A stretch of DNA of 64,000 bases from a virus (IMGVR_UViG_3300017700_000931:256001-320000); one strand, 5' to 3'; positions 6,657-44,091 are shown, counted from the stretch's first letter. A program made the numbers and translations. The notes: generated by a model not told the origin, from the sequence alone.

Positions 6657-8778
6657 TTAGAAATTCGTAGTGTTTTTGCCGGGTTCAGGAGCATTCTTTT
6701 TTATTACTAGGAACGCATTGCCGAAAATATTGCTAGTGAATCCAACAATAATATGTTCACCCTTTGGAGTGTCAACAACCAAATTTCCTTTTGGGTCAAT
6801 CGAAAGTTGTGAAAGTTCTTTGTTATGGTTCATAATAATATTATTTTGATAAAGGGCTTTAAAGCCCTTTGGTTAAGTGTGAATTACAAATCTGCTCTCT
6901 GACCCATAATACGAATATAATAACGGGTAAGTATTGCTAATCTCACTCAAATATCTCACTTCAATGTTAATGGTTGCACCATCCTTGCAAATTGCTTTAT
7001 ACTTGTTGTGCAAGTGTTCCAAGGCTAATTGAATTAAGTTTACATCGGTTTCCTTTAACACCGTATCAAATACAACTGGTTTCCCATCGGTTTTAACTTC
7101 AACACTTACTTTTAGAATATCGTTTTTCATAGTTGGTTACATTCATTGGTTTGATAAGGGGTATTAACCCCTATTATTATTATTTTACATTATATTCAAT
7201 AATTCTTAAACTTTTGAATGGCGCACCAGTAACCGACATACCACCACTCGAATTTGTTTTAAGAATTTCAAGGTGACAAGGAATAAAACCAGTTGACTTA
7301 CCTACAATAAATCTTCTCTTTTCTCCGTATTTGTCAACAACCTCAACTCTGTGACCTTCTTTACCAATTAATTCAGGTATTAACTGGGACTGACTTCTCC
7401 AACCAGTTTTATCATTTCTATCACTAGCAATTTTTACTAAATTAGTATAATTGGTGTATGCTTTTTTTGTACCTTTTTTCTTTGGAATTAAATCCTCCAT
7501 TCCAAGTTCTTTGGCTAAGGCAATGGTTCTATCCTGACATACATCAAAACCAAGGCAAGTGAATCCACTACCACAATTTAATACAAATAACTGTTGTTCT
7601 TTATTTATTGAATTTAACATATCTAATAGTTTTAGTTTGACAGGACAAATATAATACAATATTTGATATAAACCAAATTATTTGTATTCTTTTTTAAAAT
7701 AAGTTTTTAACTCAGCTAATGTGAATAACTTTTGGTATTGTGTACATTGTGTTCTATAACCCCCATCCACCGGAATGACGTTATCAGACTTTAACCATTT
7801 GTTGAATTCTTTCATAGGATAAAGGAGGTCTTTCGACCTCCCTTGTAACTTGGTAATGAATTTGTACATTCCATACCTAAGCCTTGTTTTTAATCTCAGT
7901 CCATTCACCGTTCCACTCTGTGCCGTTCAAATACCATGTACCTTGACGTTGGCTAATTCTTACGTTAGGTAGGCCGTTCAAACGCTCCTTAGTGGTGTTA
8001 CTTTTCCAACCTGCATTTGTAATGCTTAGTTTGGACTTTGTTAGACTGGTCAATTCTCTTTTTGCAATTACATTGCCATGCAATAAAAGTGTTGTAACTT
8101 TATCAGAAACTTCAACACTCATGTTCGCTTTTTTGAAAGGAGTCCCAGTCAAAAATGCCTCAATACTTTCTTCAGTAATTTTTTTCATAATGGTTACGTT
8201 TATTAGTTTGACAATACAAATATAATACAATATTTGATATAAACCAAATTATTTGTAATTATTTTTGATAAAGGGTTTTACCCCCTTACCATGCTTCCCC
8301 GTCACCAATAAATAATTTACCATTCTGGAAACTTGGCTCATATTCTTTATGGTCTGCAACCATATCACCAGTTTCATAGAATGTACTTAAATCAGCTAAT
8401 TCTAATTCGTGACAAACACAAACAACAAAGGTATCCCCACCATGTATAGGGTGTTCAACAAATTGAATTTTCTGACCTAATGAATTAACCATTTCACTGT
8501 AAACAGTTGGGTTCAATTCCATTAATTTTTTATAGTTTAACATGGTATAGAATTTAGTTTGACAATAGAATATTATTTTAACTACATTGACAAGTTCCAT
8601 AATCACAACAACAAGTACTACTATATACTTGACAAGTGTTACACCAATTCATTTCACCAGTGTGGCATAAGTGACATATTTTAGTATGGTCATGGCATGC
8701 CTCACATAAATCAGGGTTACCATCATGTGAATTATTAACAATTGTTAATTCAATATTACAGTCTTCGCAGTGATTCAT
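6657..8778 (-). CDS. run of small early hypothetical proteins (6657-6833, 6873-7130, 7180-7620, 7678-7869, 7877-8188, 8286-8543, 8578-8778)
   Basis: Starts corrected past promoter-derived MYYIC artefacts; 8578-8778 has 13 Cys and 6 His in 66 aa. Confidence 0.75.
8182..8261. repeat. 80-bp exact direct repeat, copy 2
   Basis: Identical to 2761-2840. Confidence 0.9.
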
Positions 8779-8891
8779 ATTGGTTTAGTTTGACGATACA
8801 AATATAATACTATATTTCTAATTGACCAAATAATATTATAATTATTTTCTTATTTATACTCATTCTAAATTAAAAAATAAATGCAAAAAAG

Positions 8892-8923
8892 TTTGGTGGA
8901 ACGAAATATTATGCTTACCTTTG
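8892..8923 (+). promoter_or_regulatory. plus-strand promoter with no downstream ORF
   Basis: TTTG 8892-8895, TACCTTTG 8916-8923, 20-nt spacer. Confidence 0.8.
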
Positions 8924-9000
8924 TCTTGTCGGTTGGAAACAGAGACAGGTCAGGTGCGACAATCCTGAGAGAGTAGACTCCGTCACGCCCTATAACCAAA
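8924..9000 (+). ncRNA. candidate small RNA, twin copy 1
   Basis: GC-rich island behind a promoter; shares GAGAC(A/G)GGTC and TGAGAGAGTAGACTCC with 10241-10312. Confidence 0.5.
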
Positions 9001-9080
9001 TCCACCCATTTTAAAAAAAGCTACAAAGGTAATACTTAATTTTGATATATCCTAATTATTTAACATTTACTTATTAACAC

Positions 9081-9111
9081 AAAAAAAGGGGTAGTTGTTG
9101 AAAACTACCCC
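9081..9111 (-). terminator. intrinsic terminator of the DUF932 gene
   Basis: GGGGTAGTT/AACTACCCC 9-bp stem then a 7-U run on the minus strand. Confidence 0.85.
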
Positions 9112-9129
9112 CTCAATAATTAGGAATTC

Positions 9130-10038
9130 TTAAATTTTAATTCCGGCGTAATCTAAGGCGAATGCCAGACTTTCTTGGTTGGTACGGTAGTTTGTACCAA
9201 CTGTCAAACTCTCAATTCGACCATTCTCACGTTTTGGTGCTGACTTGTCGTGCGTTGTCCAACGGGTTACTCCCGAATGAAGTCCCCAAAGGTTTTGCCC
9301 CTTTTGGTTCATCTCAATTTCAATGGCGTTGTATAATGACTCCATCGCATTCATTGAGCGGGTTGACTTGTCAATCAATTCGCTTGTCATTGTACGGTCA
9401 AAGCCTAAAATGTGCTTTACCATTTTGTTAGCCAATTCTTTGCTAACTTTGTTCGACTGGAACGCATTGTAAATCTCAATCATTCTCAGGCTCTCAGAAA
9501 GTGACAATTCAATCAATGAAGGAATCGTAGCCATTTTTTCAACCAAGTTAGCTGAATGTCTCCATTTAGCCTGACCAGAACGGTAGAAACGAAAGAACTG
9601 GTTTTGACATGACATTGTTAAGTCACCAATACCAACTGACAATCCGGTGCTACCGTCGTTAGAGTCAATAATGGTCACATAACGTTTAATGCTATCCTCA
9701 CCAACTTTTGACATACCGTCAACGGCTAATTGAATAAACACTTTACGACCACCATCAAGCGCACCTGCTTTTGAAACTGACAACTCACCGAATTTGTTCA
9801 TTCCTGTTAATACCAGTTCAACCAATTCGTCGTTTTGACTCACCACATACGAACCTTTAACAGTATTCAGAATCTCACCGCTCTTGTCATTGTATAGACC
9901 GAAATAATCGCTCTTTACATTATCCACGCTTTGAACACCCTCTGGTGAGGTAATAATACGTGGAGCAACCAATGGCAATTTTTCAATGCGGAAATCTAAA
10001 CCGAACTGAGCTAAAATTTGTTGTGCTTTTTCTTTCAT
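9130..10038 (-). CDS. DUF932 / LGT_TIGR03299-type phage-plasmid protein
   Basis: GLDF..EK.PL, Y.V.QN, AGAL.GGRKVF, DSNDGS, SCQNQ, RH, NLWGL..GVT motif order. Confidence 0.75.
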   Translation of the reverse strand: MKEKAQQILAQFGLDFRIEKLPLVAPRIITSPEGVQSVDNVKSDYFGLYNDKSGEILNTVKGSYVVSQNDELVELVLTGMNKFGELSVSKAGALDGGRKVFIQLAVDGMSKVGEDSIKRYVTIIDSNDGSTGLSVGIGDLTMSCQNQFFRFYRSGQAKWRHSANLVEKMATIPSLIELSLSESLRMIEIYNAFQSNKVSKELANKMVKHILGFDRTMTSELIDKSTRSMNAMESLYNAIEIEMNQKGQNLWGLHSGVTRWTTHDKSAPKRENGRIESLTVGTNYRTNQESLAFALDYAGIKI

Positions 10039-10208
10039 AATAAGGAGTTAATTTAAGTTAGTAATTTATTTGACTGGTACAAATATAAGATAGTATTTCC
10101 GAATAAACAAATATATTATAGTATATTTTCAATTTATTTTTAAAATCCTAACGTTTATGCGGGTTTGAGTTAGTGAAATAAAATAATACGAAAATATATG
10201 CTTTTTTA

Positions 10209-10240
10209 TTTGGTAGATTGAAATAAAGTTCTTATCTTTG
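10209..10240 (+). promoter_or_regulatory. plus-strand promoter with no downstream ORF
   Basis: TTTG 10209-10212, TATCTTTG 10233-10240. Confidence 0.8.
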
Positions 10241-10312
10241 TTTTGTCAGTGGTGAATAACTGAGACGGGTCGACCAGAAAAGTTGAGAGAGTAGACTCCA
10301 CTGTGCCTTATA
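10241..10312 (+). ncRNA. candidate small RNA, twin copy 2
   Basis: Homologous to 8924-9000; ends pair (CAGTGG 10247-10252 / CCACTG 10298-10303). Confidence 0.5.
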
Positions 10313-10427
10313 TTTTTTTACACATGAATTTTCGACCTGTATAATATTTGACATGACCAAATAATTTACACAAAAGTTATTAACAATTATTTTGTTAATA
10401 ACTTTGATGAAAAAAGTTACATAAAAA

Positions 10428-10459
10428 TTTGGTAGAACCGAATTAATGTATTATCTTTG
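10428..10459 (+). promoter_or_regulatory. plus-strand promoter with no downstream ORF
   Basis: TTTG 10428-10431, TATCTTTG 10452-10459. Confidence 0.8.
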
Positions 10460-11016
10460 TTATGTACATTCCATATCTGCATAAACGGCAGACAGCCACC
10501 CCCTACCCTTTACACTGGGTTTTAGGGGGTAGAGTCGTTACACCTCTTTTTTAGGGGGTACCGAAAGGAACCGTTACATACCTATGTTAATAGCCTGTTT
10601 TTGCCTTACTGCAAAGATACTAAAAATATCTGACAACTGCAAGGAATAGAGGATATTAGACCACGCTTTTTATAAAAATATAATTGCTCAAAAACTTGCA
10701 TATTTCAAAAAATTTGTGTAAAGTATTGAGCGTGTTTATGTTGTACTTCATATTTTTTAGAGGTATCCGGTGCATCACATATCCAATAAGCAGGGTTTTT
10801 GGTATAATTTACCACGATTTACCACTTTCTACCATTTAATGACAACGTGCTAACTCAAGTACAAAAAGGACGCATAACCTATCTGAATGCGGATGCCATA
10901 TTACACAAGATGTAGCACACAATGGGCCTTGAGCTGGGGTATACACAAATGTGTACTAGGGTATGTCATGGTACAGGGTGTCCTGTGGGATTTAGGGTAC
11001 ACAAATGTGTCCTTAC

Positions 11017-33589: not shown

Positions 33590-33809
33590 GTTACTTATAA
33601 AACGTCGGATTCGTAAAAACTAAGTAACTTTTCTGTATGATGTTTTTAGCACCCAAGGTATCTTCAAGGAATAAATTCCTACATGAACACCAAACCTCCA
33701 CAGAAAATGTTTTCGTTCCAAGTACAGATGAAATGTTTATACCGCTACTCAAGTTATGTCGTTTCCGAGCTTTCTTTTTTGCAAGAGGAAGTAAGATACT
33801 GACCTCCCC
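33590..33809 (-). ncRNA. ~220-nt structured RNA candidate with a loop-to-distal pseudoknot
   Basis: 7-bp 5' hairpin whose loop GTATCTT matches distal AAGATAC; 8-bp, 7-bp and 8-bp further helices; a TCG-GAAA-CGA tetraloop. Confidence 0.5.
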
Positions 33810-33823
33810 ATTCACTGTTTAAC

Positions 33824-33953
33824 TGGTGTGCCACAAGGGAATCGAACCCCACACTTTCCCAGAACAACGCTCCGTCGAGCCTTTCATCAGGTTACCCCGT
33901 ATATTATTGTTTTAACATAGCTGTCCGGCCCACTAAAACTCAATATGCAGCAC
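33824..33953 (-). ncRNA. 130-nt tRNA-shaped RNA with encoded CCA and an enlarged anticodon domain
   Basis: GTGCTGC/GTGGCAC acceptor + ACCA, TTCGATT T-loop, CCGGA/TCTGG stem enclosing ~60 nt. Confidence 0.75.
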
Positions 33954-33960
33954 AAGTAAA

Positions 33961-34079
33961 AGATTGGTTCCCATTAAAAGTATCCATCAGCTCAACAAAG
34001 GGCCTCGTGTCCCAAAAAAGCAGATACTCCGTTCTTTATTTCTTTATTTTATTTGCTTGATTCGGTAAGGAACCAATCT
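33961..34079 (-). ncRNA. 119-nt structured RNA candidate
   Basis: AGATTGGTTCC/GGAACCAATCT 11-bp closing stem; internal AGTATC/GATACT helix. Confidence 0.5.
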
Positions 34080-34083
34080 TTTG

Positions 34084-34184
34084 TGGGCGCAGAGGGATTC
34101 GAACCCCCATCACTCTCATAGAAGTTGGACCAGTTGCAACTGGTTTTCCCCCTCAAGTCGACATCCCCTTAGTCGCACACGCCC
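34084..34184 (-). tRNA. atypical 101-nt tRNA-like gene (possible GCA anticodon in an extended, bulged arm)
   Basis: GGGCGTG/TGCGCCC-A acceptor, CGAC/GTCG D-arm, GGGGG-TTCGAAT-CCCTC T-arm; non-canonical middle. Confidence 0.65.
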
Positions 34185-34218
34185 AAATTAAAAAATAATG
34201 ACACCCATTTCTAAGTGG

Positions 34219-34661
34219 AATGATTAGCAAGGCATCAAACATCCAAGCACCCTATTTAGTTATCTCTATGGTAACGTTTTAATCATCTTACAATAAACAA
34301 CATCACCTTAGCGTGATTATAACGAATGGATTTGGGCCTTTAATGTCAGTCGCACGACGTGTTATATCCTCACCACTCCAATTCCGTACCCCCTAACTCA
34401 GATATACACCTGCTGACCATTACGTTTAACAGGGTCGCCAATTTCGGCTTAATTTTCATCTGAGGATTGGTTGCATCTATTGTTTGTTACTGCTTATCTT
34501 CAGTAGTCATTATTTTTATGAGTGAGTATGACGTATGCCGTCCTTTGGATTTACCCGCAGACCAACGGTTCTCTCACCCATGTTTTTATAAAAATAGAAT
34601 CACTTTCATAATCAGGACCATTTTTATTCGGTGTGCCTCACCAACATGATTACTAATCACT
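34219..34661 (-). ncRNA. ~440-nt large multi-helix RNA candidate
   Basis: End-to-end 10-bp + 6-bp pairing with G-U pairs on the minus strand; internal 9-, 7-, 6-, 6- and 5-bp helices; no long minus-strand ORF. Confidence 0.65.
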
Positions 34662-34697
34662 ATCTATTTTTCAATACTTCAAAGAACTATTCTATTG

Positions 34698-34787
34698 TGG
34701 CGATACTGTGAATCTAACACAGTTTTGCAAAAATTACAGAATCAGTATCTGTGTCATCTAGCCGTCCTAACATTAGACGATACCGCC
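34698..34787 (-). tRNA. atypical 90-nt tRNA-like gene (Glu/Gln-type body, CTG in the anticodon hairpin)
   Basis: GGCGGTA/TATCGCC-A acceptor, GTC-TAATGTTAG-GAC D-arm, 10-nt insertion, ACAGA-TACTGAT-TCTGT, CTGTG-TTAGATT-CACAG. Confidence 0.6.
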
Positions 34788-34792
34788 AATTA

Positions 34793-35754
34793 TTAATTAT
34801 ATTCTAGGATATTTTCAATTAAAACATCCCCAACTTCATTTTCAAAATCAATATTCTTTATGATGGTTTGATTCTCCAAAACCAATACATCATGTTCATT
34901 GAGGGCCATCACTCTTCGTGTTGGTTCACCGTCCTGATAAAGGTCAAACACCATTCCTCGTTTCATCACCAAGTTATTCATTACCTGTTATTCGCTTCCA
35001 TATAACTCCAATCAATAAGCAAATTGCTCCAATGATTAAAAGTTCTAGAAATGTTATATCACAAGGAAGTATCATAATATTTTAATCAATTACTACAACA
35101 CCAATGTTATTATCAATACAAAAATTTTGAATGGCTTCATCAAATAATGTTATATCGCCAAACATCCGGTAGACTCTAAGTGTGTTTGCACTTGGGGAAT
35201 ACTTACCATCAAAATGAACACAAGTTCCATTTACTTCAATTCGTTCTTGTCGGTAGGTTTTTCTATCGTCTTTCATTGGTTCATTTATTTTGACAAAGAT
35301 AAGTAGAAAATTTCAATCTACCAAATAAAAATCAAAATAATTTACAACAATAATAAAACTAATGCAGCAAAGCCGGATAATACATAGGCTGTAATACCAA
35401 CACTAATAACTCCATAACCAGTAAATCTGAGTTTTAATTCTTTAAAACCGCCATTATATAGGTCACTAATAACCCAATTAAATGTCCAGAAAAGTACTGG
35501 TATCATCCATGCAATCAAATATTCATCTTTCATTTTATGTTGTTTTAAATAACTACTTCACCATCTTCATCCAGTTCACACCACTCTTGAACACACTCAT
35601 CAAAAGTTTCTTCATCATCACAATCTGAATATGTAAAGATTCGACCATTCCAATAACATACCATCATTTCAGTTTCATTCCATTCAGGACATTTTACTAG
35701 ATATTTGGTATCTACTTTTAATTGATTTTCAGTATTAAATCTATGTTTGTACAT
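34793..35754 (-). CDS. small hypothetical proteins (34793-34981, 35082-35276, 35342-35533 membrane, 35545-35754)
   Basis: ORF track. Confidence 0.7.
35294..35325 (-). promoter_or_regulatory. promoter upstream of the ncRNA island
   Basis: TATCTTTG 35294-35301 and TTTG 35322-35325 on the minus strand, 20-nt spacer. Confidence 0.85.
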
Positions 35755-43905: not shown

Positions 43906-44091
43906 AATATGGAGGTAGCTGAAAATCCTAGATAAGAGTAGGCAAAACAAATAAATCACATTATGAAAACTTTTTTTAAAAATGTATTTACGATTGCAAC
44001 AGGAATTATTGTTGCACTTGTAATTATAGGTGGGATTGTTGTGGCTGTCCTTTATGCTACAAATCCTAATCTAATGAATTATTAGTAAATC

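What the first reader, a model, noticed from the sequence alone, without database searches (positions are those of the whole stretch)
8892..10312. Twin promoter-driven non-coding elements flanking the DUF932 gene, antisense to the arm
Seen: two consensus plus-strand promoters with no ORF drive related ~70-nt GC-rich sequences: TTGTC(G/A)GT, GAGAC(A/G)GGTC (8942-8951, 10262-10271), a 12-14 nt variable part, an identical 16-mer TGAGAGAGTAGACTCC (8966-8981, 10284-10299), then GCC-x-TATA. Copy 1 also faces an opposing promoter (-7 box 9024-9031), giving a sense/antisense pair. The 16-mer contains the dyad GAGT-AG-ACTC. Inference: an undescribed small-RNA family (constant scaffold plus variable segment) or a pair of protein/recombination sites bracketing DUF932.
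Basis: partly seen in the sequence, partly recalled or inferred. Interest (0 to 1): 0.7.

Follow-up and report, generated by a model that had tools for sequence, protein, structure and literature searches.

The report
Twin phage small-RNA genes bracketing DUF932
The two repeats are real genes for a small folded RNA of an uncatalogued family carried by many phages of Bacteroidota; in this 362-kb phage they are the only two copies and they bracket one gene (DUF932), as in many other phages. What the RNA binds is still unknown.

Summary
Observation confirmed. Two plus-strand Bacteroidota-type promoters (8892-8923, 10209-10240), the only ones near here with no ORF behind them, each drive a ~70-nt element ending in the shared 16-mer. 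A covariance model finds exactly these two copies in the complete 362.5-kb genome and 70+ distinct copies in other phage contigs, including cultured Tenacibaculum phage Larrie. No Rfam family matches.

The "variable segment" is not a guide. It is a hairpin (P2) with compensatory changes. The RNA reads: 5' hairpin P1, GG, hairpin P2, near-invariant RAGAG-UAGACUCC, an 8-nt semi-variable tail, then YUAUAY.

This scan found the same family at least five times on other DNA, function unknown each time. New here: the link to DUF932. Of 18 distinct DUF932 loci, 16 have an element within ~700 nt, and 14 have one converging on the gene's 3' end.

Neither the core nor its complement recurs in 151 Bacteroidota genomes or in the phage itself, so a long antisense seed or a copy of a host RNA is unlikely. 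Best guess, an inference: an early, trans-acting, protein-binding RNA, with a conserved host factor or DUF932 as partner. A recombination-site role is neither supported nor excluded.

The parts
8892..8923 (+). Promoter of copy 1: TTTG (-33), 20 nt, TACCTTTG (-7)
   Evidence: pattern scan; no ORF follows
8927..8995 (+). Small RNA copy 1. P1 8927-8930/8944-8947, with inner stem 8933-8935/8940-8942 and GAAA loop. GG 8948-8949. P2 8950-8954/8964-8968. Core GAGAGUAGACUCC 8969-8981. Tail GUCACGCC 8982-8989. CUAUAA 8990-8995. No T-run of its own.
   Evidence: R1 hit at 62.2 bits, E 5e-13; parse; sequence
10209..10240 (+). Promoter of copy 2: TTTG, 20 nt, TATCTTTG
   Evidence: no ORF follows
10244..10319 (+). 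Small RNA copy 2. P1 10244-10247/10264-10267, with inner stem 10248-10250/10259-10261. GG 10268-10269. P2 10270-10274/10282-10286. Core 10287-10299. Tail ACUGUGCC 10300-10307. UUAUAU plus a run of 7 T, 10308-10319.
   Evidence: R1 hit at 66.1 bits, E 6e-14
9130..10038 (-). DUF932 gene (302 aa), bracketed by the two RNA genes, which lie on the opposite strand
   Evidence: Pfam PF06067, E 1e-19; PHROG 1221; the same bracket occurs in other phages
9085..9114 (-). Intrinsic terminator of DUF932: 12-bp stem and a T-run on the minus strand only. Copy 1 transcription runs into it head-on, and on the plus strand no T-run follows the stem.
10080..10111 (-). Promoter of DUF932, back to back with the copy 2 promoter (97 bp apart)
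8799..8830 (-). Promoter of the small ORF 8578-8778 (-), back to back with the copy 1 promoter (61 bp apart)

Best explanation
Each copy is an independent gene for a small structured RNA of an uncatalogued family that is specific to phages of Bacteroidota.

Shown:
- Each copy has a consensus host-type promoter.
- The fold has two covarying hairpins, P1 and P2, joined by GG.
- After P2 comes a near-invariant 3' segment, RAGAG-UAGACUCC, then a semi-conserved tail.
- The family has many copies in many unrelated phages.
- Here and elsewhere the genes lie opposite to their neighbours.
- The genes are tightly linked to DUF932.

Inferred:
- Host RNA polymerase makes the RNA early in infection.
- The hairpins serve as a scaffold and protect the 5' end.
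- The invariant, apparently unpaired UAGACUCC segment is a recognition site for a protein.
- The RNA therefore acts in trans, either as a decoy or sponge or as the RNA part of a ribonucleoprotein.
- The partner is most likely a factor conserved across Bacteroidota hosts, or the DUF932 protein encoded between the two genes.
For: Gene status:
- Promoters at 8892-8923 and 10209-10240 have no ORF behind them.
- Of 73 model hits with enough upstream sequence, 59 have a strict TAnnTTTG box just upstream and 12 more have a one-mismatch box.

Structure:
- P2: 82% of cells are paired against 63% in shuffles. There are 62 double-change cells against 22.5. The covariation score is 0.48 against 0.22 (0 of 500 shuffles reach it); slid controls give <=0.084.
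- At one P2 pair, G-U occurs in 25 of 47 sequences. It would be C-A on the other strand, so the folded strand is the transcribed one.
- P1, in a register fixed by the promoter and by P2: 81% paired against 65% (0 of 2000 shuffles). Its fourth pair is AU 14, UA 7, CG 7.

Family and distribution:
- There is no Rfam match.
- 74 model hits were found (E<=0.05) in 28 sources.
- Three other jumbo-phage contigs give 8, 13 and 5 matches, clustered within 20-27 kb.
- The family was not found in host chromosomes of 185,579 species; the only matches lie on small phage-like contigs of two metagenome-assembled genomes.
- Cultured Tenacibaculum phage Larrie has 2 copies on the strand that carries almost no genes.

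Protein binding rather than base pairing:
- UAGACUCC is unchanged in 73 of those 74 hits, while the residues before it vary without compensation.
- Neither the 12-mer core nor its complement exceeds the reversed-pattern control in 151 Bacteroidota genomes.
- The phage itself holds no complement to the core.

Host partner or DUF932:
- By BLASTP, Larrie and the jumbo phages share only thymidylate synthase, a helicase, an SprT-like protein and a few others. No phage protein was found in all five genomes.
- The complete genome has exactly 2 copies, and both flank DUF932.
- 16 of 18 distinct DUF932 loci carry an element within ~700 nt.
Against: - Transcription, RNA ends and abundance are therefore inferred.
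- No binding partner was identified.
- The DUF932 model is confident (pLDDT 94.8) but resembles no solved nucleic-acid-binding fold.
- Larrie has the RNA but no detectable DUF932, so DUF932 cannot be an obligatory partner.
- A short seed of 6-8 nt that pairs with host mRNAs cannot be excluded by the 12-mer test.
- The fold of the conserved core is unresolved. Neither a GGG/CUC helix nor a GAG-UAGA-CUC hairpin is backed by compensatory change.
- Only 16 of 50 copies have a T-run soon after the tail, and no canonical plus-strand terminator follows either copy here. Some transcripts may therefore run on as antisense RNA.
Confidence: 0.5

Rival explanations
1. Cis-acting or antisense regulator of DUF932. 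Transcription from the copy that converges on the gene's 3' end (and, in some phages, a sense copy ahead of the gene) controls DUF932 expression. It would do so by collision of polymerases, by antisense pairing, or by a structured leader that switches between termination and read-through.
For: - An element converges on the 3' end of DUF932 in 14 of 18 loci.
- In 5 loci the upstream copy is in the sense orientation, 200-360 nt ahead of the start codon.
- Copy 1 here has no T-run, and on the plus strand the DUF932 terminator stem is not followed by T's, so read-through into DUF932 is possible.
- In some members the tail can pair with the P1 strands, which would give alternative folds (permutation p about 0.04).
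Against: - Most copies in multi-copy phages sit next to other genes.
- Larrie has the RNA without DUF932.
- Many converging copies carry their own T-run before reaching the gene.
- An antisense or collision mechanism does not explain a near-invariant 8-mer shared by unrelated phages.
Confidence: 0.2
2. Base-pairing regulatory RNA in the manner of FopS/GibS. The conserved single-stranded segment would be a seed that pairs with host (or phage) mRNAs.
For: - It is a multicopy, promoter-driven small RNA with a conserved, apparently unpaired segment.
- Bacteroidota use such families, and FopS was also seen in a phage (PMC11697453).
Against: - The architecture differs. FopS has a single-stranded 5' seed followed by a terminator hairpin and is in Rfam. 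Here the conserved segment is 3' of two hairpins, and no Rfam model matches.
- The complement of the 12-mer (<=1 mismatch) is no more frequent than the control in 151 Bacteroidota genomes.
- That complement is absent from the phage genome.
Confidence: 0.12
3. DNA-level cassette boundary. The repeated promoter-plus-element units would serve mainly as short homologies for shuffling or excising early-gene cassettes, like the PeSL promoter/stem-loop motifs of T4-type phages.
For: - Two direct repeats bracket a single gene.
- Early regions of related phages are mosaics with many ~60-bp promoter repeats at block borders.
- PeSLs are a precedent (PMC2839356, PMC4122927).
Against: - Only 16 bp are identical between the two copies.
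- The stems change by compensatory substitutions with frequent G-U pairs, which is selection on a folded transcript and not on DNA identity.
- The core is conserved across phages that share almost no genes.
Confidence: 0.08
4. Guide RNA or CRISPR-repeat mimic. The RNA would be a constant handle plus a variable targeting part, or a solitary repeat unit that disables a Cas protein (Racr).
For: It has a constant and a variable part and is encoded by a phage. Racrs are a precedent (PMC10651486).
Against: - The variable part is self-complementary.
- The core 12-mer in the sense orientation is not found in repeated form in 151 Bacteroidota genomes ('reverse' column at control level).
- No nuclease gene is linked to it.
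Confidence: 0.03

Closest known systems
FopS / GibS multicopy small RNAs of Bacteroides (PMC11697453)
   Same: Multicopy, each with its own Bacteroidota sigma-A promoter, small, with a conserved unpaired segment. FopS was also seen in a phage.
   Different: FopS has a 5' single-stranded seed plus a terminator hairpin, is chromosomal, and is in Rfam. This family has two 5' hairpins and a 3' conserved segment, is found only on phage-like DNA, has no Rfam match, and no complementary targets were found.
RNA anti-CRISPRs (Racr, solitary repeat units; PMC10651486)
   Same: Phage-encoded, promoter-driven small RNAs thought to act by binding a host protein.
   Different: Racrs are defined by likeness to a host CRISPR repeat. 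No repeat-like occurrence of this core was found in 151 Bacteroidota genomes.
put / nut antitermination RNAs of lambdoid phages (from my own knowledge)
   Same: Two stem-loops plus a conserved linear element directly behind a promoter, in a few copies per genome. Several P2 loops are GNRA-like (GACAA, GAAA, GAGA).
   Different: Those act in cis on operons downstream. Here nothing co-oriented lies downstream, and in Larrie nearly all genes are on the other strand.
PeSL promoter/stem-loop cassettes of T4-type phages (PMC2839356, PMC4122927)
   Same: Repeated regulatory units that flank single early genes in variable regions.
   Different: PeSLs are co-oriented promoter-terminator motifs without a conserved RNA core. 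Here the unit is opposite to the genes and encodes a covarying folded RNA.
DUF805b RNA (Rfam RF02914), present elsewhere in this window (43909-43944)
   Same: It shares the heptamer AGAGUAG 3' of a hairpin and occurs in the same phage.
   Different: It is a 35-nt leader in front of a 40-aa membrane-protein ORF on the coding strand. Its model does not score the two elements even at E<=10.

Membership tests
   66.1 and 62.2 bits, E about 1e-13. The next best hit in the window scores 13.7 bits.
Uncatalogued phage small-RNA family | Own TAnnTTTG promoter, ending about 3 nt before P1 | tested here: met
   family-wide 59 strict plus 12 near matches of 73
Uncatalogued phage small-RNA family | P1 and P2 hairpins joined by GG, with covariation | tested here: met
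Uncatalogued phage small-RNA family | Expressed as a discrete RNA | not testable with these tools
Any Rfam 15 family (including DUF805b, FopS, ribozymes, riboswitches) | Score at or near the gathering threshold | tested here: not met
   No hit overlaps either element, even at E<=10.
FopS/GibS | 5' single-stranded seed followed by a terminator hairpin | tested here: not met
   The conserved segment lies 3' of two hairpins; FopS description.
Racr (solitary CRISPR repeat unit) | Sequence likeness to a CRISPR repeat of the host group | tested here: inconclusive
   The sense 12-mer is not above control in 151 sampled Bacteroidota genomes. The host is unknown and repeats were not searched as such.
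put/nut-type antitermination site | Co-oriented genes and terminators downstream | tested here: not met
   The next plus-strand ORF of 70 aa or more that does not overlap a longer minus-strand ORF starts about 26 kb downstream. In Larrie nearly all genes are on the opposite strand.
PeSL-like recombination cassette | Insertion/deletion polymorphisms bounded by the repeats | not tested
   No close relative of this genome is on hand. Only a mosaic structure in other phages was seen.
DUF932 (PF06067) for the bracketed gene | Pfam score above the gathering threshold | tested here: met
   71.6 bits against a cut-off of 23

The most novel reading that the evidence does not exclude
The RNA is an early phage-made decoy whose invariant UAGACUCC segment captures a protein conserved across Bacteroidota hosts, for example a defence nuclease or a global RNA-binding protein. 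It would work together with DUF932 as a two-part anti-defence or host-takeover module. That would also give a first functional handle on the widespread DUF932 family of phages and plasmids.
Probability: 0.25. Interest if true: 0.8.

Novelty: new variant of a known kind. Interest (0 to 1): 0.6.

Why it matters
Phage-encoded small RNAs with known roles are few. This family is very strongly conserved: the 8-mer UAGACUCC is the same in a 77-kb cultured phage as in jumbo-phage contigs of 158 to 362 kb. It is abundant in aquatic phage metagenomes and has no entry in Rfam or in the papers I could search.

The link to DUF932 gives a concrete hypothesis to test. DUF932 is a common gene of unknown function in phages, plasmids and integrative elements. 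Because the family also occurs in a cultured Tenacibaculum phage, the tests are practical. The family also marks unannotated gaps that gene callers leave empty in these genomes.

Tried and rejected
- Rfam at gathering and at permissive thresholds gave nothing on the elements. tRNA and tmRNA scans gave nothing there either.
- Single-sequence folding is not better than shuffles (z = -0.2 and +0.7), so the structure rests on comparison between members.
- Literature searches by motif name, by promoter and phage terms, and by the core letters found nothing relevant. The only letter match is the hantavirus terminal primer TAGTAGTAGACTCC, a 10-nt coincidence.
- BLASTN of the 1.65-kb region against 50,697 phage records gave no match. 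Short-query BLASTN found only Tenacibaculum phage Larrie.
- The third ORF-less promoter unit (10428-10560) is not a member by model R1, even with filters off.
- Search for a phage-encoded partner:
  - The recurrent neighbours are an SprT-like protease, a Kyano_Gp96-like protein, a DUF6011 protein, and a 195-aa family with no Pfam or PHROG hit. The model of that 195-aa family was too poor to search with (pLDDT 60).
  - None of these is present in all RNA-bearing genomes.
- DUF932 fold: there is no PDB relative by profile, none by Foldseek (best E 0.009, TM 0.13), and none by VIA-align (best Z 7.5 over residues 64-185 only, within the range expected by chance).
- A 5'/3' closing helix has only weak support (p about 0.04). 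A GGG/CUC helix or a GAG-UAGA-CUC hairpin in the core shows no compensatory change.

Full report
**What is there.** The window is bases 256,001-320,000 of a complete 362,532-bp phage genome with direct terminal repeats. Genes from 0 to about 34 kb of the window run on the minus strand. Each has its own Bacteroidota-type promoter, TTTG-N17-21-TAnnTTTG. There are 31 such promoters in the window against 4.9 expected.

Of the 31 promoters, 27 are followed by an ATG-led reading frame within about 35 nt. One lies at the window edge. The three plus-strand ones at 8892, 10209 and 10428 have no such frame.

**It is a family, not a chance pair.**
- The 15-mer GAGAGAGTAGACTCC occurs in 35 IMG/VR stretches. 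In about 30 non-redundant cases it sits at the same distance behind a TAnnTTTG box, with up to six copies per stretch.
- A covariance model built from 25 members (R1) finds 74 hits (E<=0.05) in 28 sources.
- Of 73 hits with enough upstream sequence, 59 have a strict -7 box and 12 more a one-mismatch box.
- Three other jumbo-phage contigs give 8, 13 and 5 matches, clustered within 20-27 kb.
- In this window and in the whole genome only the two copies match, even with filters off.
- A scan of one genome for each of 185,579 prokaryote species found true copies only on small contigs of two metagenome-assembled genomes. These contigs look like mis-binned phage DNA.
- The cultured Tenacibaculum phage Larrie (77.5 kb) has two copies. 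They lie in unannotated gaps on the strand that carries almost no genes.
- Rfam 15 has no match, even at E<=10, and I found no paper that describes it.

**Earlier notes of this scan.** The scan recorded the same family at least five times on other genomes, each time with function unknown. I re-derived the family independently here.

**Anatomy.**
- About 3 nt after the -7 box begins hairpin P1. Its first pairs are U-G, G-C and U-A; the fourth covaries (AU 14, UA 7, CG 7).
- Long forms, including both copies here, add an inner stem behind a purine/A internal loop.
- In a register fixed by the promoter and by P2, 81% of P1 positions pair against 65% in shuffles (0 of 2000).
- GG follows, then hairpin P2.
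- For P2, 82% of cells pair against 63% in shuffles. There are 62 double-change cells against 22.5, and a covariation score of 0.48 against 0.22 (0 of 500). Slid controls give <=0.084.
- One P2 pair is G-U in 25 of 47 sequences. It would be C-A on the other strand, so the folded strand is the one the promoter transcribes.
It is not a guide.
- Then comes RAGAG-UAGACUCC. UAGACUCC is unchanged in 73 of the 74 hits. The five residues before it vary (GAGAG 42, AAGAG 21, UAGAG 4, AAGAC 3; also GAGUG, AAGCG, GGAGG), and rare forms have UAUACUCC or UAGAUUCC.
- These changes are not compensated elsewhere. I therefore cannot support either a GGG/CUC helix or a GAG-UAGA-CUC hairpin, and I treat the segment as unpaired or engaged in tertiary or protein contacts.
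- An 8-nt tail of a few recurring types follows (GACACGUC, AACCUACC, GUCACGCC and others), then YUAUAY.
- Sixteen of 50 copies then have a T-run. Copy 2 does; copy 1 does not.
- P1 or P2 is missing in a few members. The core with GG is therefore the minimal unit.

**Setting.**
- The genes usually lie opposite to their neighbours. Of 37 with both neighbours called, 22 are opposite to both and 6 are co-oriented with both.
- Each RNA promoter stands back to back with the promoter of an early gene, 61 and 97 bp apart here. The RNA points at the terminator of the next gene.

**The DUF932 link, which is new here.**
- The bracketed gene is a DUF932 protein. Its two flanking RNA genes are the only copies in a complete 362-kb genome.
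- The same bracket, with both copies antisense, occurs in three other jumbo-phage contigs, in L007 and in L041.
- I sampled nine further independent metagenome contigs that carry close DUF932 relatives.
- Over 18 distinct DUF932 loci, 16 have a model hit within about 700 nt, and one more has a variant seen by eye (GGAGGUAUACUCC).
- Fourteen loci have a copy that converges on the 3' end of the gene.
- The 5'-side copy is antisense in nine loci and sense in five.
- In phages with a dozen copies this could be partly density. With two copies in about 360 kb it is not.
- Larrie has the RNA without a detectable DUF932, so the link is strong but not obligatory.

**What DUF932 might be.**
- It folds confidently (pLDDT 94.8).
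- It has no convincing solved relative.
- It has no functional literature. One preprint reports that a resident DUF932 gene mutated after phage challenge.
- On a conjugative Emticicia plasmid it sits beside a PD-(D/E)XK nuclease and an orphan adenine methylase.

**How it most likely works.**
- The 12-mer core and its complement (<=1 mismatch) are no more frequent than a reversed control in 151 Bacteroidota genomes. The phage has no complement to the core, and none of >=13 nt to either RNA outside A/T runs.
- This argues against a long antisense seed and against mimicry of a conserved host RNA.
- Larrie and the jumbo phages share almost no proteins by BLASTP, and none was found in all five genomes. 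Yet they keep the same 8-mer. That points to a constraint from outside the phage, most simply a conserved host protein.
- Host-type promoters, several gene copies, and a 5' hairpin that starts at the transcript's first bases fit an abundant, stable, early RNA.
- I therefore favour a trans-acting, protein-binding RNA (a decoy or a ribonucleoprotein part), with DUF932 as a possible partner or co-worker. This step is inference; no binding or expression data exist.

**Rivals.**
- Cis or antisense control of DUF932. The converging copy is the most constant feature, and copy 1 has no terminator of its own. Some tails can pair with P1 strands.
- A short-seed base-pairing RNA.
- PeSL-like recombination borders.
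- A guide RNA or CRISPR-repeat mimic.

**Verdict.** The 'new small-RNA family' reading is supported. The 'variable guide segment' and 'recombination site' readings are not supported. The opposing promoter at 9024-9031 is only a -7 box. The family is new to the catalogues but already known to this scan. The added value here is the conserved DUF932 bracket and the negative tests on base-pairing targets.

Noticed in passing
window 10428-10560 (+): A third plus-strand promoter with no ORF drives a different GC-rich unit (CCCCCUACCC...UAGGGGGUAGAGUCGUUACACC). It shares GUAGA and a similar tail with the family but is not scored by model R1.
   Followed up: partly
window 43909-43944 (+): An Rfam DUF805b RNA (41.7 bits) lies directly in front of a 40-aa single-helix membrane ORF (43963-44085). 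It shares AGAGUAG with the small-RNA core.
   Followed up: partly
window 33800-34800: A 1-kb stretch with no ORF of 70 aa or more lies at the switch between the minus and plus gene arms. It looked richer in G+C by eye (not measured). It carries tRNA-like 3' halves on the minus strand (GGGATTCGAACCCCC). ARAGORN calls no tRNA there, and Rfam gives only a weak tmRNA 3'-end match (34092-34108, E 0.09).
   Followed up: partly
window, all promoters: There are two leader types behind the promoters. Genes of the minus arm mostly start ..TGTCAAACTAAA..ATG. Genes of the plus arm mostly start ..CATCATTAAAACCAACC..ATG. This suggests two promoter or leader classes, possibly temporal.
   Followed up: no
L058 12700-13050 (Tenacibaculum phage Larrie): The 1.1-kb unannotated gap next to the second RNA copy holds two copies of another repeated promoter-like unit on the gene strand (TTTG..TATCTTTG tac TGACACCC..). 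These may be further small RNA genes.
   Followed up: no
L094 2469-3293 (-): In one relative, the place of the element that converges on DUF932 is taken by a 274-aa gene with a faint I-TevI DNA-binding hit. It is a possible homing-endonuclease insertion.
   Followed up: no
L047 versus L048: Early regions of two related phages are mosaics: collinear blocks, one transposed block, and dozens of ~60-bp promoter repeats at block borders. This is reminiscent of PeSL-mediated shuffling.
   Followed up: partly
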